This document shows positions 3,907 through 63,649 of a stretch of 64,000 nucleotides of DNA, one piece after another. Both the position numbers and the translations under genes were made by a program. A model generated the notes under the pieces. That model was not told where the DNA came from and ran no database searches. It saw only the letters and a program-made list of their open reading frames with translations. The stretch is from a virus: positions 1 through 64,000 of IMG/VR virus record IMGVR_UViG_3300020160_000328. One strand, written 5' to 3'. Position 1 is the stretch's first letter. Every line of letters starts with the position of its first letter.

Positions 3907-6900
3907 TTAACATTTTTTAATTTCAGGTAATCTAAAGTTATTTCTTCTTGAATCATAACTATCTCCTCCTGAAGTAAATTTACTCATGTCAAATTCTAAT
4001 ACTTTTGTTTCTTTATTTTCTTGTACAATAGGTTTGTTAGTTTGTTCTATTTTATGAGTAGTTAATATGAATGAAGCATCTTCAGCTCTTGTTACTGCAA
4101 CATATTTTAATTGACTTTTTAACTCACTATCTTGAAAACTACTTATTGTATCATCTAAAATAAAAGAATACTTATATGTACCACCTTGAGATTTATGAAT
4201 TGTATGTGAATAACCATAATCTAAAGTTTTTCCTATTTTAGTATAACCATTATGTTTTATATCTACAGGGGATAAAAATGAATCTTTAAATTCTGTTAAA
4301 GTAGCCCAAGCTCTAGCACTTGCAGGACTACCTTTAGGTTGTTGAATTGCATTTAATCTTAATTGTTCATAATAAGAACCAATAGAATTTAAAATTTCTT
4401 CTGAGTTATCTTTACTAATTATAAATCCTCTAAAACTACTTTGTTCACTATCTAATATATTTTTAATCTCAACCTCAAAACCTTTTACTTTTTCGCCAGC
4501 TATATTATTAGTTGTTTCTTTAGAAGATATAATTTTATAATCTCCACCATTATTTAATTTAGGTTGTTTAGTTTTAAAATCTACTTTCCAATTACCATAC
4601 CCCATTATAATATCACCTGATTCATATTCTTTAGCTTCTTTACCAAATAATGCTTCTCTTATACTATTATTAGTTTCTTCTACTACTTTATTAGTACCTG
4701 ATAATATTCTAAGTAACAAAGGATTTTCTTTAAACTCTTCTGATTTAAACATATCAAAAGCTTTTGTTAAAAATTGAACCCTACTATTAGTAAAAGCAAT
4801 ACCTTTATTATTATCAATATTTGTAGTATAACTAAAATCACCAGTATTTCTTACATTCATAGATTCATTTAATAATGAATTGTTATTAGCTCTTTCAACT
4901 ATAGTTAATTTACTTTGTGCTTCAGTAGAAGTTAATGCTTTAGATTTATGTGTTTGTTTAACAGGTTTAATTTGAGCATCATCACCAACATAAAGAATCT
5001 TAACACCCATATTATCTAAATAATTATTAATTAAGTTAAATAACTCATCATTTATCATTGAAGCTTCATCAATAATTACAACATCATCTTGGTTAACTTT
5101 TAAATTATTTTGAGGTGTAAATTTAGCATCTTTACTATCAAATGTTTCTAAATCTTGTTCTATATTTAAACCTAATAATTGATGTAATGTATAAACTTTA
5201 GCATCTTTGTTTTTTAATTTAATAACAGCATTAGCTCTATGTGTAGGAGAAGTAAATATAACATTACTAAAAGGATTATCTATTTTTTCTTTTATTATAT
5301 TTAATAAAGTTGTTTTTCCTGTACCTGCATAACCTATTAAAGAATGTGTTTTTCTATCTTTATTATTAAAAAATTCTATTATTTCATTAAAAGCTTTTTC
5401 TTGATCTTTATTTAAAATTATTTTACCATTATTTATTATTTTAGATTGTTCTTTAATAGGTTCTACTCTTTGTACTTCAACCTCTAGAACTTCTACTCTA
5501 TCTTCTTGAATTACTTCTTGTAATGTAGGTTTAGCTTCTTTAAGTTCTATACCTTTATTATCAGGACTAATTTCTTTTTCAGTTTTAAGTAGATCTTTTA
5601 TAGCTCCAAATATCTCATCATTATATTTTAAAGTTTTACCTGTTGAATTATTGTAAAATATACCAAATAAATCTCTTAACATTTTTTTGAATCTATCCAT
5701 AAATCCTTCTTGTTTCTCTTCAAGCTTAGCTCTATAATCAGGAGATACAAAAACACCAGCTATAAATTCATATATGTCTTTAGAGTAATAAGTTGATATA
5801 TCTCTTTCATCATAAGGTACTTCTTGTCTAGCTGCTTCATACAATGCAACTAATTTGTTAGCAAACAATGGAGCATTTTCTATTAAAGTAACTTTTCCAG
5901 TTGTCTTATCCTCACTTTGTATATATTTCTTAATCTCATTAACAGTCATTGAATGTATAATCTCTTCAAATATAACTTCTTTAACTATGTTAATAGCATC
6001 ATTAAAACTTCCATTAGTTTGTAATAAAGCATCTTCTACTATAGTTGAACTAATAGTTATTGTATTAGTATCTCTATTGTATTGTCCAAATGTTCCATTA
6101 GACATAGGTGCATATTCAAACTTAACATCTAACTTAACATAATCTTTAAGTTCATTAATAAAGTTTTTATACTCTTGTGATGTTTTTTCAGAGTCATATA
6201 TTTTTTGTAATATACCCTCTAAACCTAAACTTGATGGTAACAACTCATTAACACTAGGAAGTTTAGTTCTTAATCTAGTATCCTTGTTAATGTAACTTCT
6301 TACACCACCTATATTATCAATCTTAAATGTACCTTTTTTAAACACATTGTTTTTTACAATTGTAGTTTGTACAGGATTATTTGAATTATACTCATTGTAA
6401 CCTCTAGTACCTAATACATCTATTCTCTTATAAGAATCTGAATCTTCATTATACTTAAATAAGATATATTTCTTATTAGAAGTTTTAATTGAACCATCTC
6501 TTACAGATACAAACTCAGGAGTTTCATTCTCTAATCTAAATTCTTCTAATGTATTAGCTTTAGCTAACTCTCCTTTTATAGCTACAAAACCTTTATCTAC
6601 TTGATTATTTGGATTTAATGTGTAAGCTCTATCAGGATTATGTTGAAAGAATTGAGTAACAAAATTATCCATTAAAGTATTCTCTTGTCCATCTTTAATC
6701 TTATCAAACATGTTTCTAAACTTATCAGTTGATTGTAATACTTTTAAGTAATCAACAGATATAAAGTTTCTAAATCCTGTAGCTCCATTTTCATTATCAG
6801 CTAAGTAAGCATATGATGCTAAATCTTGTGCCAACTTTTGTGATGTTAATGTTTCACCATTAAACTCTCCTAACACTTCATCTGATTGTAATAACTCATT

Positions 6901-54069: not shown

Positions 54070-54237
54070 ATGTATAGATTTCACATATCATATAAAGACC
54101 TTGAGAAGAATGATAAATTCTTAAGAGGTGCTAATGTTATTCTTCAAGAAGATAATATTATAGAAGCATTGCGTACATTTCAAAATGAGTATCATAACAC
54201 AGAGATTCAAGGAGTCTTAAGATCAATTGTAGAGTAA
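54070..54237 (+). CDS. 55-aa hypothetical protein (MYRFHISYKDLEKNDKFLRG...)
   Basis: Stop overlaps the AAA+ start (TAATG coupling). Confidence 0.6.
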   Translation: MYRFHISYKDLEKNDKFLRGANVILQEDNIIEALRTFQNEYHNTEIQGVLRSIVE

Positions 54238-55568
54238 TGCACGAAGAAAATAAATACGAAGTAGCAGAAGTAATTGAAGATAAGGGAACAATAGTACCTG
54301 ACTTTGATTTAGATAGATTAGCTAAAGACATTGATGATGTCTTTCAAAAGCAATTAGAAAGAAAAATAAGTGAACTTAGATTAGATTCTAATAAATTGTT
54401 ACATGAAGTTGATGATAAATTAACTGAACAATTTACAGGATTTAAACAAAGAGTTGACTCTATATTTCCTGATATTAAAGAAAGATTAGTAGAGGAAATA
54501 CAAAGAGGTAGAACTATTATTGTTTTACCTAGTACACAAGAAATTAATGTACAACATATGGATCATCCTGTAACTGAAGGTGCTATTAAATCACTACAGT
54601 TACAAAGAAAACTTATGTTAGTAGGTCCAGCAGGAACAGGTAAGACTACAATGGTAGAGAAAATAGCAAAATCATTAGATATTGCATTTTATAAATACTC
54701 TTGTTCTAGAGATTCATCTGTACATGATTTATTAGGTTATAAACAACCAACTTCAGAAACATATTTAGAAACAACATTTCTAAATGCTTATGAAAATGGT
54801 GGTATATTCCTTGTAGATGAATATGATGCAATGTCTGGAGATATGGCTCTATTCTTTAATGGTGTAGCAGATAATTCTAAATTCATATCTATTCCTCATA
54901 GAGATACTAAACCACAAGCAGAGAAACACAAAGACTTTTATTTAGTTATGTGTGGTAATACTTGGGGTAAAGGTTCTACTGATTATTCAGGTAGAGATTT
55001 TCAAGATATGGCTCTAATGGATAGATTTAGATTTTGTAGACATCATGTTGGTTATCATCATTTACTTGAAAAAAAGTTTATGAAACATAATTATGAGAGT
55101 ATATCAAGATTAAGATCTGCATTAGAAAATGTAGGTTCTTATTTATCTACAAGAAATGTAGAAGATATTGCTATTTTAATTGAGTGTGATGTACCATTTA
55201 CTAATATATTGGATATGGTTCTTCAAGATCTTGCAGAAGATGATAAAAGAAGAATTAAAGATTCATTAAGAAGTGAAAGAGTTACAAAATCAGCACCAGT
55301 TCAAAGAGAGGTACAAGAACCACAAAGACCTAATTTTGATCCTACTTTAAATGTTAGAGATGGTCAAGGTAGAATCTTTAAGTTAACAGATTTAATGAAA
55401 GCTTATCCAGTTAATCAACCACATAGAATGGAACAATTAAAGACAAGAGATAAAGTTCTACATGGTAGATACTTAGGTATGTTAATGCAACAAAGTATAC
55501 CTACATCTGGTATGGTAAGTAGTGATTGGGAGGACCATAATGGAGTTATTAGATCAAGTAGCTGGTAA
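54237..55568 (+). CDS. MoxR/CbbQ/CobS-like AAA+ ATPase
   Basis: GPAGTGKT, FLVDEYD, CGNTWGKG, DMALMDRF. Confidence 0.9.
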   Translation: MHEENKYEVAEVIEDKGTIVPDFDLDRLAKDIDDVFQKQLERKISELRLDSNKLLHEVDDKLTEQFTGFKQRVDSIFPDIKERLVEEIQRGRTIIVLPSTQEINVQHMDHPVTEGAIKSLQLQRKLMLVGPAGTGKTTMVEKIAKSLDIAFYKYSCSRDSSVHDLLGYKQPTSETYLETTFLNAYENGGIFLVDEYDAMSGDMALFFNGVADNSKFISIPHRDTKPQAEKHKDFYLVMCGNTWGKGSTDYSGRDFQDMALMDRFRFCRHHVGYHHLLEKKFMKHNYESISRLRSALENVGSYLSTRNVEDIAILIECDVPFTNILDMVLQDLAEDDKRRIKDSLRSERVTKSAPVQREVQEPQRPNFDPTLNVRDGQGRIFKLTDLMKAYPVNQPHRMEQLKTRDKVLHGRYLGMLMQQSIPTSGMVSSDWEDHNGVIRSSSW

Positions 55569-58038: not shown

Positions 58039-59730
58039 ATGACTAAATCTAATTCAAAATTAGCTAGTATTATAGGTGAAAAAAAGCCTAAACAAGAATT
58101 AGTAGAAGCTAAAGCTATCCCAAAACCTGATGCTAAGAATCAACAAGGATTACCTGCTTATACACAAGATATGTGGTTAAAATTACTTACAATGTTAAAT
58201 ACATTGAAGTTACAACCACAATATTACAGAACAGAACAGAAGACATTAAAGGAATTACAAGATCTTATTAAGCTTTGTGCTACACAAGATTTGTATTTTA
58301 CTTGTCAATGTATTGTATATTCTAGATGTCTTGGAGAAGGTATGAGAACTATTTCTCATGCAGCAGCAGTATTTGTAGCTCCTTACATTTCAGGTCAAGA
58401 ATACTCTAAAAGATTCTATGGACCTTGGGATAAGAAAAAGAAAAGAGGTGGATTAATCTATAGACCTGATGATATGAGTGAAATCATATCAGGATTTGTA
58501 GCTTTAAATGGTGAGTATAAAACTACCACTATTACCACAAAAGAAGGTACTTCTACTACTGTAGATATTTCAGGTACTAAGTTAACTAATGCAATGAAGA
58601 AAGGTTTTAAAGCTGCTATTGAATCATATGATACATATAGTTTGCTTAAATACAAATCTTCATTAATTGATGTTATTAATTTAGTACATCCAAAACCTTC
58701 AGAATCTCAAGCTACTGTTAAAGTAGAAGGAGAAGATGTTTACACTATTGATGCTATTATGAGAGGTATGAATGTACTAGCTGAAACTTGGGAAGTATCT
58801 CAAGGTGAAGCAGGTCAGATAGTAGCTAAAGCTGTAAAAGAAGGTAAACTAGATGAAACTGAAGCTAAAGAAGTATTAACTCAAGCTAAAGCTGATAATT
58901 GGGCTGAATTGTTAGATAATAACAAATTACCTATACTAGCTTGTCTAAGAAACTTAAGAAACATTCTTATTAACAATCCTACACAGGCTACTGTTGATAA
59001 AGTATGTGCATTAGTTTCTAATCCTAAGTTAATACTTGAAGGAAAGATATTTCCTTATCAATTAGATTTATCTAATGAGATTATGCTTACTGAGTTTAAT
59101 GATGGTAAAGCAAGACAAATATCACAAGCATTAGCTAAAGGATATGAACTAGCTATACCTAATCTTAAAGCTTTATTACCAGGTGATAATGTAATCTATT
59201 TAGACCAATCAGGTTCAATGGGTACACCTATTATATTGAGTGGTAAAGATAGAAAGTATGGTAAATCTCAATGTATTGATAAAGCTGCCCTAATTGCTGC
59301 TACAATAGCTAAAGCAACTAATGCTGATATTATTGTATTTGGTTCAACTGCTAAATATGTATCTTATAATCCTAATTTAGATGTATTCACATTAGCTAAA
59401 CAATTATCTTCTGCTCATATGGGTGGAACTAATTTGTCTACAGCTTGGAATGCAGCTCAAAACTCTGGTAAGAAATATGATAGAGTATTTATCTTATCAG
59501 ATAATGAAGTAAATCAAGGTAGTACATATAATGCTTATACATCTTATTTAAGAGCTGTAGGTAGTCCTTATGTATATTCTGTAGATCTAGCTGCTTATGG
59601 TACAAATTGTATTGCAGGTGATAAAGTTAGATATTACTATGGTTATGGATTTAGTATGTTTGATGATATTGCATCATCAGAATTTAATGCTAATTATCAT
59701 ATTGAGAAAGTTAAACAAGTAATTATATAA
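58039..59730 (+). CDS. rsr: TROVE/Ro60 (Rsr-like) RNA-binding protein
   Basis: 563 aa; N..G.PAY, GMRT, RPDDM.EI, Y.LLKY, DVINLVHPKP, TWE, LRNLRNI, PYQ; C-terminal vWA with DQSGSM, GGTN, ILSDNE, YSVDL..YG. Confidence 0.92.
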   Translation: MTKSNSKLASIIGEKKPKQELVEAKAIPKPDAKNQQGLPAYTQDMWLKLLTMLNTLKLQPQYYRTEQKTLKELQDLIKLCATQDLYFTCQCIVYSRCLGEGMRTISHAAAVFVAPYISGQEYSKRFYGPWDKKKKRGGLIYRPDDMSEIISGFVALNGEYKTTTITTKEGTSTTVDISGTKLTNAMKKGFKAAIESYDTYSLLKYKSSLIDVINLVHPKPSESQATVKVEGEDVYTIDAIMRGMNVLAETWEVSQGEAGQIVAKAVKEGKLDETEAKEVLTQAKADNWAELLDNNKLPILACLRNLRNILINNPTQATVDKVCALVSNPKLILEGKIFPYQLDLSNEIMLTEFNDGKARQISQALAKGYELAIPNLKALLPGDNVIYLDQSGSMGTPIILSGKDRKYGKSQCIDKAALIAATIAKATNADIIVFGSTAKYVSYNPNLDVFTLAKQLSSAHMGGTNLSTAWNAAQNSGKKYDRVFILSDNEVNQGSTYNAYTSYLRAVGSPYVYSVDLAAYGTNCIAGDKVRYYYGYGFSMFDDIASSEFNANYHIEKVKQVII

Positions 59731-60705: not shown

Positions 60706-60755
60706 AAAATATTTAACCTATCTCTTGGTAGGTTAAATATTTTTCTTTAAATTTG
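60706..60755 (+). promoter_or_regulatory. Terminator hairpin overlapping a Bacteroidota promoter that likely drives the tmRNA/tRNA/Y-RNA region
   Basis: AAAATATTTAACCTATC/GGTAGGTTAAATATTTT hairpin; TTG 60725-60727, 20-nt spacer, TAAATTTG 60748-60755. Confidence 0.65.
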
Positions 60756-60765
60756 CACAGTTGAA

Positions 60766-60969
60766 ATGGAAATAACTATTGATAAGACCTATTTACTTAA
60801 ACCTCTTATAGTTGATGTGAAAGTAGCTAGTGATGGTAAGTTAAGAGATATATTAACTTTAGTAGGACATATGTATCTATATGGTAGAATAAAAGGTAGA
60901 TATAGTTATCATAAAATCCTTGATGAAGCAATTGAAGAAGAAACAAAAAGAAGAAAAACAAGGGAGTGA
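60766..60969 (+). CDS. Hypothetical protein
   Basis: 67 aa, directly after the promoter; stop overlaps the tmRNA 5' end. Confidence 0.5.
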   Translation: MEITIDKTYLLKPLIVDVKVASDGKLRDILTLVGHMYLYGRIKGRYSYHKILDEAIEEETKRRKTRE

Positions 60970-61299
60970 CATGGAATTGACTACCTATTATATAGTATAT
61001 AATTCAGCCTAGAGAGATAACTAGTAAAACTAAGGTGAAATAAGTAAATGGAAAAGATTCAAAACAAATCGAAGCTAACATGACTGTAGTACATAACATC
61101 TTAAATGGTGGTGTATCAGTTAAATCAACTCAAAGAGTAGAAATGGCATTAGCAGCATAAAACTTATAGGTTAGTAAGTTCCTTAATACTTACAAAGCAT
61201 ACAAAAATATCTAACTTAAAGATATAAAAGAAAAGTAAGCTGTAAAAAATTATATATCTTGAAGTATGTAACACGGGAGTTCGAGTCTCCCCACTTCCA
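60962..61299 (+). ncRNA. ssrA: tmRNA
   Basis: 5' GGGAGTGACATGGAATTGAC; 3' T-arm GGGAGTTCGAGTCTCCC plus CACTTCC-A; G3:U70 Ala identity pair; internal tag ORF ending MALAA*. Confidence 0.93.
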
Positions 61300-61311
61300 C
61301 AATATAATACA

Positions 61312-61426
61312 ATAGGGTAGTTATAGTAAACTTACTTCGTGAAATTGGTATACACATTTGTCTTAAGAACAAACTTTTGCTGGTTCAAGTCCAGCAGTAA
61401 TAAATGTTTACTAACTTTCTCCCTAT
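61312..61426 (+). ncRNA. Y-RNA-like element E1 with tRNA-Leu(TAA)-like cargo
   Basis: Stems ATAGGG/CCCTAT and TAGTAAAC/GTTTACTA; TTACTTC at 61332; D, anticodon (TAA) and T arms inside. Confidence 0.75.
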
Positions 61427-61430
61427 AAAT

Positions 61431-61503
61431 GGTCTATAGGTCAAATGGTTAAGATATCCCACTGTCTCTGGGTATGGAAAGGGTTCGACTCCCTTATAGA
61501 CTG
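61431..61503 (+). tRNA. tRNA-Asp(GTC)
   Basis: Cloverleaf; loop CTGTCTC; T-loop TTCGACT. Confidence 0.9.
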
Positions 61504-61505
61504 CA

Positions 61506-61627
61506 AATAAGAATAGTAATAATTAACTTACTTCGTGCTTTTTGGAAAGCATTTCACTTTTAATGAAACAATCAGGTTCAAATCCTGCGGGAGAGATCCC
61601 ACTAGTTAATTAAATTTCTTTCTTATT
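61506..61627 (+). ncRNA. Y-RNA-like element E2 with tRNA-Lys(TTT)-like arms
   Basis: Stems AATAAGAA/TTCTTATT and TAATTAAC/GTTAATTA; TTACTTC at 61528; arm TTTCA-CTTTTAA-TGAAA; T-arm CAGG-TTCAAAT-CCTG; extra GGGA/TCCC hairpin. Confidence 0.75.
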
Positions 61628-61807: not shown

Positions 61808-61811
61808 CTAC

Positions 61812-62028
61812 AAGAGTGGTAAAAAATAGGTTACTTCGCAAAAATTCTATGAGAGTTCTTCTCATAAAACTTGATACTAATGGTATCTTACTAAACACTA
61901 TGAAAATTAGACAGTTAAATGGGGTAAATTTAAACAAACGAAATTTAACAAACTTTTACTAATTTAGTTATAAATTGGAACCTTTATTGGAAGGATAAAC
62001 CAATAACCCTATTTTTAATTTCCCTCTT
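61812..62028 (+). ncRNA. Y-RNA-like element E3 with a long multi-hairpin cargo
   Basis: Stems AAGAG/CTCTT and AAAATAGG/CCTATTTT; TTACTTC at 61831; internal hairpins TATGAGA/TCTCATA, GATAC/GTATC, TTATTGG/CCAATAA. Confidence 0.7.
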
Positions 62029-62033
62029 TTTAA

Positions 62034-62119: not shown

Positions 62120-62122
62120 CAA

Positions 62123-62189
62123 AGGAATAGTAATATAAGAGTTACTTCGTAAGCTATACAAAAAATAAACTCTTATAATTTTCTTTCCT
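62123..62189 (+). ncRNA. Y-RNA-like element E4 (minimal, A-rich loop)
   Basis: Stems AGGAA/TTCCT and TATAAGAG/CTCTTATA; TTACTTC at 62142. Confidence 0.72.
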
Positions 62190-62193
62190 AAAT

Positions 62194-62828: not shown

Positions 62829-62833
62829 CAAAG

Positions 62834-62974
62834 AAGAGTAGTAAAAAGAAAGTTACTTCTATGTGGCAGACGTAGTATAGGTTCAAATCCTGTCATACTC
62901 CCTAAAGTAATACAAATGGAGTATGTAGTGTAATTGGTTAGCACACGAAAATTACTTTCTTTATTTTCTCTCTT
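62834..62974 (+). ncRNA. Y-RNA-like element E5, YrlA-type, with a circularly permuted tRNA-His-like module
   Basis: Stems AAGAG/CTCTT and AAAGAAAG/CTTTCTTT; TTACTTC at 62853; order is GTG remnant, T-arm ATAGG-TTCAAAT-CCTGT, loop-closed acceptor CATACTCC/GGAGTATG, then D-arm TA-GTGTAATTGGTTAGCAC. Confidence 0.85.
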
Positions 62975-62979
62975 TAATT

Positions 62980-63268: not shown

Positions 63269-63339
63269 TCCCCTGAAGCTTTAAGGTGAAGCACATCACT
63301 TTTAATGATGGGAAGTTGGGTCAGTACCACCCAGGGGAA
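63269..63339 (+). tRNA. tRNA-Lys(TTT), non-canonical T loop
   Basis: Acceptor TCCCCTG/CAGGGGA; CATCA-CTTTTAA-TGATG; T loop GTCAGTA. Confidence 0.78.
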
Positions 63340-63434: not shown

Positions 63435-63520
63435 GCCTTCATGGTGGAATGGTAGACACGAGGGACTTAAAATCCCTTCCTCAGAAATGGGGGGTGCAAG
63501 TTCGAGTCTTGCTGGAGGTA
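63435..63520 (+). tRNA. tRNA-Leu(TAA)
   Basis: AGGGA-CTTAAAA-TCCCT; long variable arm. Confidence 0.92.
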
Positions 63521-63649
63521 CAAGTATTGCAAAGATACTGATTAAAAACCTGTTCCCTGTCCTCATAACAGCTATAAGGCAGCTAGGAGTTGAATGTACA
63601 TTCGGGGTTATAAAAAGTACAAGGGTAAGTTAGGGTTCTTACCAAATTT

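What the first reader, a model, noticed from the sequence alone, without database searches (positions are those of the whole stretch)
61312..61627. E1 and E2 carry unpermuted tRNA arms with intact anticodon loops inside the Y scaffold
Seen: E1 has D arm, anticodon arm (TAA, Leu) and T arm in normal order, and TTACT can pair with AGTAA as a pseudo-acceptor continuing into the scaffold. E2 has a D-like hairpin, a Lys TTT anticodon arm, a T arm and one extra hairpin. Unlike YrlA, the scaffold here replaces the acceptor end and the anticodon is displayed. Separate tRNA-Leu(TAA) and tRNA-Lys(TTT) genes are also in the cluster. Inference: these are non-chargeable anticodon decoys. tRNA-Lys(UUU) is the known target of the anticodon nuclease PrrC.
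Basis: partly seen in the sequence, partly recalled or inferred. Interest (0 to 1): 0.8.

Follow-up and report, generated by a model that had tools for sequence, protein, structure and literature searches.

The report
Phage Ro60 partner RNAs mimicking tRNA
Two small RNA genes in a phage tRNA cluster are tRNA look-alikes without a usable acceptor end, held in a conserved stem that always lies beside phage Ro60 genes; they are most likely a new variant of Y RNAs, not working tRNAs and not shown to be nuclease decoys.

Summary
E1 (61312-61426) and E2 (61506-61627) each carry D, anticodon and T arms in normal tRNA order. Both sit inside a covarying two-helix handle: P1, internal loop UAGUAA / AAUUUUCU, P2, then UUACUUCG. 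The phage encodes Ro60 1.6 kb upstream.

A covariance model built only from 15 elements of other phages hits E1 at 76.9 bits and E2 at 66 bits, full length. Real tRNAs in the window reach 40 bits at most, and only in part.

The handle occurs beside Ro60 genes in 63 of 88 Ro60-bearing viral loci. It also occurs in GenBank crAss-like phages, where some elements are annotated as tRNAs, and in a related form beside chromosomal Ro60 genes of Bacteroidota. Rfam's YrlA model does not match it.

The anticodon arm keeps a 5-bp stem, and the loop keeps 7 nt (59 of 62), U33 (56 of 59) and R37 (56 of 59). The triplet itself is hypervariable: 22 anticodons, including nonsense ones. The same genomic slot in four close relatives holds UUU, CAU, UAG or no tRNA part at all.

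So "non-chargeable tRNA mimic on a Y scaffold" is supported. "Lys/Leu-specific anticodon-nuclease decoy" is not supported by conservation and remains untested. The topology has a precedent in Deinococcus Yrn1.

This scan noted the same handle earlier in at least 9 other genomes. Verdict: a new variant of a known kind.

The parts
58039..59730 (+). Phage Ro60 (TROVE + Ro60-type vWA) gene, 563 aa
   Evidence: Pfam TROVE 32.1 bits and vWA_Ro60 28.5 bits, both above their cut-offs. Best PDB hit is Thermus phage phiLo Ro60 9KOP/9L5Y, E 8e-7; X. laevis and human Ro60 also match.
61312..61426 (+). E1: handle plus native-order tRNA-like body (anticodon loop CUUAAGA, UAA)
   Evidence: R1 model 76.9 bits, E 3e-15, full length. 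ARAGORN/Rfam tRNA call 61330-61403. Fold z-score -2.0.
61312..61339 (+). E1 handle, 5' strand: P1 ATAGGG 61312-17, loop TAGTTAT 61318-24, P2 AGTAAAC 61325-31, TTACTTCG 61332-39
   Evidence: Sequence, motif scan, CM alignment.
61357..61373 (+). E1 anticodon arm, 5-bp stem and 7-nt loop; anticodon TAA at 61364-61366
   Evidence: ARAGORN drawing. All 5 stem pairs covary across the family.
61396..61426 (+). E1 3' side: AGTAA pseudo-acceptor 61396-61400, bulge TAAAT, P2' GTTTACT 61406-12, loop AACTTTCT 61413-20, P1' CCCTAT 61421-26
   Evidence: Sequence, CM alignment.
61431..61504 (+). Ordinary tRNA-Asp(gtc) between E1 and E2
   Evidence: ARAGORN and Rfam, 46.6 bits.
61506..61627 (+). E2: handle plus native-order tRNA-like body (anticodon loop CUUUUAA, UUU) plus GNRA-type hairpin
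   Evidence: R1 model 66 bits, E 1e-12, full length. Rfam tRNA partial hit 61537-61587, 32 bits. Fold z-score -3.07.
61509..61535 (+). E2 handle, 5' strand: P1 AAGAA 61509-13, loop TAGTAAT 61514-20, P2 AATTAAC 61521-27, TTACTTCG 61528-35
61552..61568 (+). E2 anticodon arm; anticodon TTT at 61559-61561
   Evidence: The loop is identical to that of the phage's own tRNA-Lys.
61589..61600 (+). E2 extra hairpin GGGA-GAGA-TCCC, equivalent to the gcgc-GAAA-gcg hairpin of relatives
61605..61624 (+). E2 handle, 3' strand: P2' GTTAATT 61605-11, loop AAATTTCT 61612-19, P1' TTCTT 61620-24
61811..62029 (+). E3, same handle with a 177-nt non-tRNA cargo
62122..62190 (+). E4, same handle with minimal cargo
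   Evidence: 51.7 bits through the handle alone.
62833..62975 (+). E5, same handle with a permuted (T arm, closed acceptor, D arm) YrlA-type cargo
   Evidence: 37.7 bits.
63269..63339 (+). Canonical tRNA-Lys(ttt) of the phage
   Evidence: Rfam 40 bits; sequence.
63435..63521 (+). Canonical class II tRNA-Leu(taa) of the phage
   Evidence: ARAGORN and Rfam, 55.7 bits.

Best explanation
E1 and E2 are phage-encoded Y-type non-coding RNAs, partners of the phage's own Ro60 protein. They belong to an uncatalogued family whose constant part is a two-helix handle: P1, internal loop UAGUAA / AAUUUUCU, P2, UUACUUCG.

In E1 and E2 the variable part is a tRNA body in native order (D arm, anticodon arm, T arm). 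Its acceptor stem is cut down to 4-5 bp and runs into the handle. It therefore has no free CCA end and cannot be charged or used in decoding.

Shown:
- the fold, by covariation;
- family membership;
- the tight genomic link to Ro60;
- the lack of a normal acceptor end;
- the fast turnover of the anticodon triplet.

Inferred, by analogy with Rsr-Yrn1/YrlA-PNPase particles and the phiLo Ro60-Yrl-PNPase complex:
- Ro60 docks on the handle.
- The tRNA-shaped body, above all its conserved D/T-loop elbow and a genuine U-turn anticodon loop, serves as the adaptor. It would bring Ro60 to, or hold, a host protein that recognises tRNA shape.
- The six handles with four cargo types would give one Ro60 several alternative adaptors.
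For: (1) A Ro60 gene lies 1.6 kb upstream on the same strand.

(2) The genome has six handle copies. P1 and P2 differ in sequence in each copy but still pair.

(3) Formal covariation on 14 elements: 92.9% of cells paired against 37-52% when slid; 17 of 21 pairs change on both sides; P2 7 of 7 and anticodon stem 5 of 5. RNAalifold on 15 foreign elements independently gives P1, P2, D, AC and T, with 22 of 29 pairs compensatory.

(4) Model R1, built without this genome, hits E1 at 76.9 bits and E2 at 66 bits, full length. True tRNAs reach 40 bits at most, in part only.

(5) Link to Ro60:
- A handle-only pattern scan recovered loci with Ro60 genes only 29-41% identical to this one. Only two small fragments (8% and 11% complete) lacked Ro60.
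- 142 elements were found in 63 of 88 Ro60 loci, on the Ro60 strand apart from two low-scoring matches.
- The UACUUCG motif is kept in a 63% G+C contig and beside chromosomal Ro60 genes of Bacteroidota.

(6) Among relatives the same handle carries permuted YrlA-type bodies (32), native-order bodies (29), short cargos (35) and other cargos (24).

(7) There is no decoding constraint. The 59 elements carry 22 anticodons, including 6 nonsense and 5 with A34. The Asp-Thr slot holds UUU, CAU, UAG or a minimal cargo in close relatives.

(8) Published support:
- bacterial and phage Y RNAs carry tRNA-like domains, and Yrn1 has this orientation (PMC4201824);
- phage Ro60 binds phage Yrl RNAs and host PNPase (PMC12135203);
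- a Ro60-like phage protein next to a tRNA array counters a defence system (bioRxiv 10.1101/2024.10.10.617714).
Against: - No expression or binding data exist.
- The handle lacks the published Ro60-binding motifs (GGUCCGA, GNCGAA). Rfam YrlA RF02553 gives no match: best 15 bits, at tRNA junctions.
- E1 scores as a tRNA (45 bits) and has A73, so release of a tRNA-like product by processing cannot be excluded.
- Some relatives (subclass A) carry a complete 7-bp acceptor, and a few an encoded CCA. These might be processed into real tRNAs.
- U33 and R37 are each kept in 95% of loops. This suggests the anticodon loop matters in itself, which the plain 'adaptor' reading does not explain.
Confidence: 0.72

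Rival explanations
1. Anticodon decoys. The Ro60-held mimics display anticodon loops that bind or absorb host tRNA-targeting defence nucleases such as PrrC-, RloC-, PARIS- or retron-type enzymes. This would spare the real tRNAs. Fast change of the triplet would reflect an arms race.
For: - The anticodon loop is canonical: 7 nt in 59 of 62, U33 in 56 of 59, R37 in 56 of 59. This is more constraint than a spacer hairpin needs.
- E2's loop CUUUUAA is identical to that of the phage's own tRNA-Lys.
- UUU loops recur in distant lineages: L122, L148 and csAssE-Sib.
- The bodies are non-chargeable.
- Bas63 Ro60-like gp130 counters a defence system.
Against: - The triplet is not conserved even at one syntenic slot in close relatives.
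- 11 of 59 carry anticodons that no ordinary host tRNA has: UUA, UCA, or A34.
- Only 26 of 59 match a canonical tRNA called in the same locus.
- The same handle carries cargos with no anticodon arm at all.
- From general knowledge: known anticodon nucleases depend on wobble-base modifications, and a stoichiometric decoy is a weak answer to a catalytic nuclease.
- Nothing was tested biochemically.
Confidence: 0.13
2. Real tRNA genes with an unusual leader-trailer duplex. The handle would be a processing or protection signal, and E1 and E2 would be trimmed into decoding tRNA-Leu(UAA) and tRNA-Lys(UUU).
For: - ARAGORN and Rfam call E1 a tRNA, and at a relaxed threshold ARAGORN calls E2 tRNA-Lys.
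- Relatives of subclass A have perfect 7-bp acceptors, and some have ACCA after them.
- GenBank annotates such elements as tRNA-Tyr, tRNA-Lys and tRNA-Gln in csAssE-Sib and cr111_1.
Against: - E1 has A·A and C·U at 1:72 and 2:71, lacks the class II variable arm of tRNA-Leu and has no CCA.
- E2's only acceptor is G·U-rich and competes with the GGGA-GAGA-UCCC hairpin.
- Canonical Leu(UAA) and Lys(UUU) tRNAs already exist in the cluster.
- Orthologues switch freely among sense and nonsense anticodons while keeping the same body.
- R1 scores E1 and E2 well above true tRNAs.
Confidence: 0.08
3. Decayed tRNA pseudogenes, or a repeat or mobile element with no RNA function. The flanking repeats would be recombination scars.
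For: - E1's D stem has only 3 bp and E2's D loop is truncated.
- Cargo is swapped between close relatives.
Against: - Compensatory changes occur in all stems.
- Loop motifs are conserved across Ro60 proteins only 26-37% identical and across 30-66% G+C.
- The elements keep to the Ro60 strand.
Confidence: 0.03

Closest known systems
YrlA (Rfam RF02553): tRNA-like Y RNA of bacterial Rsr/Ro60 and of mycobacteriophages (Chen et al. 2014, PMC4201824)
   Same: - Encoded near Ro60 on the same strand.
- A terminal stem with an internal loop plus a tRNA-like module with conserved D and T loops.
- Several Y RNAs per locus.
- E5 of this phage has the YrlA arm order.
   Different: - E1 and E2 have the arms in native tRNA order and keep a full anticodon arm. 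The handle takes the place of the acceptor end rather than the anticodon arm.
- The conserved motifs are UAGUAA, UUACUUCG and UUUCU, not GNCGAA.
- The RF02553 model does not match.
- The elements are interleaved with a phage tRNA array.
Yrn1, the Y RNA of Deinococcus radiodurans (Rsr-Yrn1-PNPase particle)
   Same: Same orientation according to PMC4201824: D-like region, an 'anticodon arm' with a 5-bp stem, then a T arm, with the Ro60-binding stem where the acceptor stem would be.
   Different: - Yrn1 has a 6-nt loop, no full D arm and no variable region.
- E1 and E2 are near-complete cloverleaves with a 7-nt U33/R37 loop.
- No sequence comparison with Yrn1 could be run here.
Yrl1/Yrl2 with Ro60 of Thermus phage phiLo (PMC12135203; PDB 9KOP, 9L5Y)
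   Same: - A phage-encoded Ro60 with phage-encoded partner RNAs next to the gene.
- This Ro60's best PDB match is the phiLo protein.
   Different: - The phiLo RNAs were picked by a CGAA motif and a stem-bulge-stem shape.
- No tRNA cloverleaf or anticodon display is described for them.
Phage tRNAs that replace or evade cleaved host tRNAs (for example T5 tRNAs against PARIS or retron nucleases)
   Same: They lie in a phage tRNA cluster and carry anticodon loops of tRNA type.
   Different: Those are chargeable, decoding tRNAs. E1 and E2 lack a usable acceptor end, and their anticodon is not conserved.

Membership tests
Y RNA (Ro60 partner RNA) | Encoded close to a Ro60/TROVE gene, on the same strand | tested here: met
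   Ro60 lies at 58039-59730 and E1 starts at 61312, both on the + strand. The same holds in 63 of 88 Ro60 loci.
Y RNA (Ro60 partner RNA) | 5' and 3' ends form a long stem interrupted by a conserved internal loop or bulge | tested here: met
   P1 and P2 covary and the loop motifs are conserved.
Y RNA (Ro60 partner RNA) | Published Ro60-binding motif (GGUCCGA in animals, GNCGAA(N)G in bacteria) on the 5' strand | tested here: not met
   The 5' strand carries UAGUAA and UUACUUCG instead. CGAAG appears only on the opposite strand, which the T-loop polarity excludes.
Y RNA (Ro60 partner RNA) | Physical binding by Ro60 | not testable with these tools
   Needs EMSA or RIP. Only the genomic association is shown.
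YrlA (Rfam RF02553) | Match to the family covariance model (gathering score 69 bits) | tested here: not met
   Best hit in the genome is 15.3 bits, at tRNA junctions, with none on E1-E6. There is also no hit at E up to 5.
YrlA (Rfam RF02553) | Arm order T arm, closed acceptor stem, D arm, with the Ro stem replacing the anticodon arm | tested here: not met
   E1 and E2 have the order D, anticodon, T. E5 does have the YrlA order.
Functional tRNA | Cloverleaf with conserved D and T loop nucleotides | tested here: met
   Rfam tRNA scores 45.1 bits for E1 and 32 bits, in part, for E2. E1's D stem has 3 bp and E2's D loop is truncated.
Functional tRNA | 7-bp acceptor stem with discriminator and a free (CCA) 3' end | tested here: not met
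   E1 has 5 bp plus two mismatches, and the stem continues into P2. E2 has a G·U-rich alternative that competes with a hairpin. Neither has CCA.
Functional tRNA | Anticodon kept among orthologues; for tRNA-Leu, a long variable arm | tested here: not met
   The syntenic slot holds UUU, CAU, UAG or none. There are 22 anticodons in 59 elements. E1 has a 5-nt variable region.
Anticodon-nuclease decoy | Anticodon loop mimics that of the targeted host tRNA and is conserved where the nuclease is | tested here: inconclusive
   Loop form is conserved (U33 and R37 each 95%) but the triplet is hypervariable, and 11 of 59 triplets are not natural sense anticodons. The hosts and their nucleases are unknown.
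Anticodon-nuclease decoy | Binding, cleavage or competition with an anticodon nuclease | not testable with these tools
   Biochemical assay needed.

The most novel reading that the evidence does not exclude
The native-order elements would be programmable baits. Ro60 would hold a non-chargeable tRNA body whose authentic, fast-evolving anticodon loop captures or senses anticodon-reading host factors, such as defence nucleases, modification enzymes or the ribosomal decoding site. Triplet turnover between near-identical phages would then record an arms race. That would give the long-unexplained tRNA-like domain of Y RNAs a concrete, testable function.
Probability: 0.15. Interest if true: 0.85.

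Novelty: new variant of a known kind. Interest (0 to 1): 0.6.

Why it matters
What the tRNA-like domain of bacterial Y RNAs does is still unknown. This family offers natural variants on one handle: native order, permuted, or no tRNA body. In the native-order form the anticodon arm is kept but the triplet runs free. That points to which parts are under selection: the elbow and the U-turn loop, not the triplet.

It also gives a direct experimental handle. One Ro60 protein can be tested against six partner RNAs.

The finding also corrects annotation. Several "tRNA genes" next to Ro60 in crAss-like and other phages are handle-embedded mimics, so phage tRNA counts and suppressor-tRNA calls (UUA, UCA) in such genomes may be inflated.

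Tried and rejected
- Rfam: no family other than tRNA matches E1 or E2. YrlA RF02553 gives no match in the genome or in 14 chromosomal Ro60 loci of Bacteroidota at gathering score.
- Opposite-strand reading: TTACTTCG reads CGAAGTAA on the minus strand, which resembles the CGAA motif of YrlA. I rejected this because T-loop polarity, G·U pairs in the stems, and the strand of Ro60 and the tRNAs all point to the + strand. The thermodynamic fold cannot tell the strands apart.
- Recent copies of the phage's own tRNA-Leu or tRNA-Lys: rejected. The best global matches are generic, around 70% identity, and mostly to other tRNAs.
- Handle pattern in 185,579 cellular genomes: the 120 stretches returned were chance matches, with no handle fold and no Ro60. 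The related chromosomal handles were found only by starting from TROVE genes.
- Minimum-free-energy folding does not form E1's TTACT/AGTAA pairing. That pairing rests on the tRNA model only.
- RtcB and a CCA-adding enzyme were sought in the phage and not found.
- My first regex-plus-duplex search was too noisy. I replaced it with a stricter filter and then with the covariance model.

Full report
**Setting.** The window is the first 64 kb of a complete 97,777-bp virus genome with direct terminal repeats. A cluster of 18-20 tRNA genes runs from 61.3 to 66.2 kb on the + strand. ORF 58039-59730, 1.6 kb upstream on the same strand, is a Ro60 orthologue. It matches Pfam TROVE and the Ro60-type vWA domain, both above their cut-offs. 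Its best solved relative is the Ro60 of Thermus phage phiLo, followed by frog and human Ro60. The nearest GenBank homologues lie in crAss-like phages of the human gut and in Vibrio phages. A TAnnTTTG box in front of the cluster fits a Bacteroidota host, from what is known of Bacteroidota promoters.

**The observation.** Six elements share one architecture; five are in the window and the sixth is at 64068-64143.
- P1, 5-6 bp.
- An internal loop, 5' UAGUAA(N) facing 3' (A)AUUUUCU.
- P2, 7-8 bp.
- An invariant UUACUUC(G).
- A variable cargo, which returns to the 3' strands of P2 and P1.

P1 and P2 differ in sequence in every copy yet stay complementary.

In E1 (61312-61426) the cargo is:
- a D arm (GTG/CAC);
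- an anticodon arm with loop CUUAAGA;
- a T arm with loop UUCAAGU;
- AGUAA, which can pair with UUACU of the invariant motif.

ARAGORN and Rfam therefore call 61330-61403 a tRNA-Leu(UAA). That call has A·A and C·U at the top of the acceptor, a 5-nt variable region and no CCA.

In E2 (61506-61627) the cargo is:
- a short D-like hairpin;
- an anticodon arm with loop CUUUUAA;
- a T arm;
- a GGGA-GAGA-UCCC hairpin.

These are shown. Canonical tRNA-Leu(UAA) and tRNA-Lys(UUU) genes lie further along the cluster.

**Is it real?** I collected relatives in two independent ways. Searching with the Ro60 protein gave loci with Ro60 51-73% identical to this one. Searching again with a Ro60 alignment gave 77 loci down to 34% identity. 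Separately, a DNA pattern made only of handle letters, followed by a fold filter, recovered further loci. These turned out to carry Ro60 genes only 29-41% identical to this one, either in the locus or elsewhere in the record. Only two fragments, 8% and 11% complete, lacked one.

In all, 142 elements (120 unique) lie in 63 of 88 Ro60-bearing loci. They are on the Ro60 strand except for two low-scoring matches that look like chance.

On an alignment of 14 native-order elements, 92.9% of cells pair, against 37-52% when partners are slid. All seven P2 pairs and all five anticodon-stem pairs show changes on both sides. RNAalifold on 15 elements from other phages predicts P1, P2, D, anticodon and T helices on its own, with 22 of 29 pairs compensatory.

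A covariance model built from those 15 foreign elements (R1) finds E1 at 76.9 bits and E2 at 66 bits, both full length. The true tRNAs of the window reach 40 bits at most and match only the cloverleaf part. E1 and E2 are therefore members of a conserved structured-RNA family. They are not decayed pseudogenes.

**What the family looks like.** The same handle carries four kinds of cargo:
- short cargo, 35 elements;
- permuted tRNA bodies with the T arm first, as in YrlA and E5, 32 elements;
- native-order bodies, 29 elements;
- other cargo, 24 elements.

The native-order group splits in two. Subclass A has a complete 7-bp acceptor that starts right after UUACUUC. Some members have an encoded ACCA, followed by an A-rich linker (examples L008:12401-12530 and L012:12549-12678). 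Subclass B keeps only a 4-bp acceptor remnant (UUCG/CGAR or UUCU/AGAG), followed by a GNRA-capped hairpin (typically gcgc-GAAA-gcg) and UACA. E2 has this build, so its "extra hairpin" is a family feature. E1 lacks the hairpin and has a 5-bp remnant instead.

In GenBank, phage csAssE-Sib has three such elements directly upstream of its annotated "Ro sixty-related protein". Two are annotated as tRNA-Tyr and tRNA-Lys(UUU). crAss phage cr111_1 has an annotated tRNA-Gln inside a variant handle.

Starting from TROVE genes in 301 Bacteroidota genomes, 19 carry such a gene. I found related handles with (A/U)UACUUCG next to the chromosomal Ro60 genes. One contig of 63% G+C had two full-length R1 hits, at 84.6 and 50.9 bits. 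That the motif letters survive from 30% to 66% G+C argues for a sequence-specific contact, most simply with Ro60. Rfam's YrlA model matches none of these.

**The anticodon question.** Among 62 unique handle-bearing native-order elements found by R1:
- 59 have a 7-nt loop;
- 56 of those 59 have U33, and 56 have a purine at position 37;
- the triplet takes 22 values;
- six triplets are nonsense anticodons (UUA, UCA) and five have A34;
- only 26 of 59 repeat the anticodon of a canonical tRNA called in the same locus.

Entropy is about 0.3 bit at position 33 and 1.2-1.8 bits at positions 34-36.

Orthologues that share the same D arm, T arm and GNRA hairpin just downstream of Ro60 differ mainly in the loop: CUUAAAC, CUUCAAC, CUUUAAC, CUUUAAU, CUUUUAU. 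Four phages have Ro60 proteins 72-73% identical to one another. In these, the slot between tRNA-Asp and tRNA-Thr holds E2 (UUU) here, CAU in L142, UAG in L016 and a minimal cargo in L007.

This rules out a conserved decoding role. On the other hand, the strict retention of the loop's form is more than a spacer hairpin needs. An anticodon-loop-reading partner is therefore not excluded. UUU-type loops do recur in distant lineages (E2, L122, L148, csAssE-Sib).

**Mechanism.** The fold, the family, the Ro60 linkage, the missing acceptor end and the free-running triplet are shown. That Ro60 binds the handle is inferred. So is the idea that the tRNA-shaped body acts as the adaptor module. Both inferences rest on analogy with three published cases:
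- Rsr-Yrn1-PNPase in Deinococcus, and YrlA (PMC4201824);
- the phiLo Ro60-Yrl-PNPase complexes (PMC12135203);
- the Ro60-like gp130 of phage Bas63, which lies upstream of a tRNA array and counters the Ppl defence system (bioRxiv 10.1101/2024.10.10.617714).

The phage has no RtcB and no CCA-adding enzyme.

**Comparison with what is known.** The closest family is the bacterial and phage Y RNAs. E1 and E2 differ from YrlA in arm order, in keeping the anticodon arm and in the handle motifs. They share their orientation with Yrn1 of D. radiodurans, which has only a 6-nt "anticodon" loop and an incomplete D arm (PMC4201824). In the papers held I found no description of handle-embedded, native-order, anticodon-bearing Y RNAs or of this UUACUUCG handle. 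I class it as a new variant of a known kind.

After my own analysis I consulted the scan's notes. The same handle had been noted in at least nine other genomes, and follow-ups there reached similar conclusions. They agree with this report and did not change it.

**Limits.**
- There are no expression data and no binding test.
- The element census partly rests on my own regular expressions. The T-loop filter fixes T54 and A58, though the R1 search does not.
- Related sequences are not independent, so counts of anticodons are descriptive.
- Hosts are unknown.

Noticed in passing
window 60962-61302 (+): A tmRNA-like gene lies directly upstream of E1. Rfam tmRNA scores 29.2 bits, below the gathering score of 47 (E 3e-9 in the small search). 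It has a tRNA-like end (GGAGTTCGAGTCTCC...CCA-less) and a tag frame ending ...ALAA-stop. It is conserved in L007 and L016, where the frame ends ...AA-stop. ARAGORN does not call it.
   Followed up: partly
window 60706-60765 (+): A 17-bp hairpin terminator (60706-60743) is followed by TAAATTTG, which fits the Bacteroidota -7 box TAnnTTTG. The whole block is conserved in L007 and L016. It is probably the promoter of the small ORF, tmRNA, Y RNA and tRNA transcription unit, and it hints at a Bacteroidota host.
   Followed up: partly
window 54237-55568 (+): A MoxR-type AAA+ ATPase (Pfam AAA_5, 40.8 bits) lies 2.5 kb upstream of Ro60, which itself has a vWA domain. MoxR ATPases commonly work with vWA proteins. 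Whether the pair is conserved was not checked.
   Followed up: no
window 61811-62029 (E3); L007:13647-13856; L142:11975-12175: The same handle carries a 160-180-nt cargo without tRNA features. It is kept at the syntenic slot between tRNA-Arg and tRNA-Asn in three relatives. The nature of the cargo is unknown.
   Followed up: no
L141 (csAssE-Sib OR575929) 6463-6885; L140 (crAss cr111_1 NC_055880) 5858-5986: GenBank 'tRNA-Tyr', 'tRNA-Lys' and 'tRNA-Gln' features next to Ro60-like genes are handle-embedded elements. The Tyr one has G33 instead of U33. tRNA annotation in such phages probably over-counts.
   Followed up: partly
L144:9800-9924, L162:7162-7287, L189:9879-10004, L159:9915-10040, L152:1604-1732: Handle-embedded mimics with UUA or UCA anticodons would be called suppressor tRNAs by gene finders. 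This could mislead inferences of stop-codon recoding in phages.
   Followed up: partly
L385 (G152:C120) 5984-6364 (-): A 63-66% G+C contig binned in a Bacteroidota-phylum genome carries two full-length native-order elements (UGU and UGA loops) upstream of its TROVE gene. Whether the 19.6-kb contig is a phage was not checked.
   Followed up: no
genome 88747-89340 (+), outside the window: A weak RNA-ligase-like match (PF09414, 24.2 bits, below the cut-off of 27) lies in a 402-aa ORF. It could be a DNA or an RNA ligase.
   Followed up: no
L007:15150-15224, L007:15327-15401, L016:16078-16152: Close relatives carry 75-nt tRNAs with Leu anticodons (UAG, UAA), normal acceptor stems and no long variable arm. 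This is unusual for tRNA-Leu.
   Followed up: no
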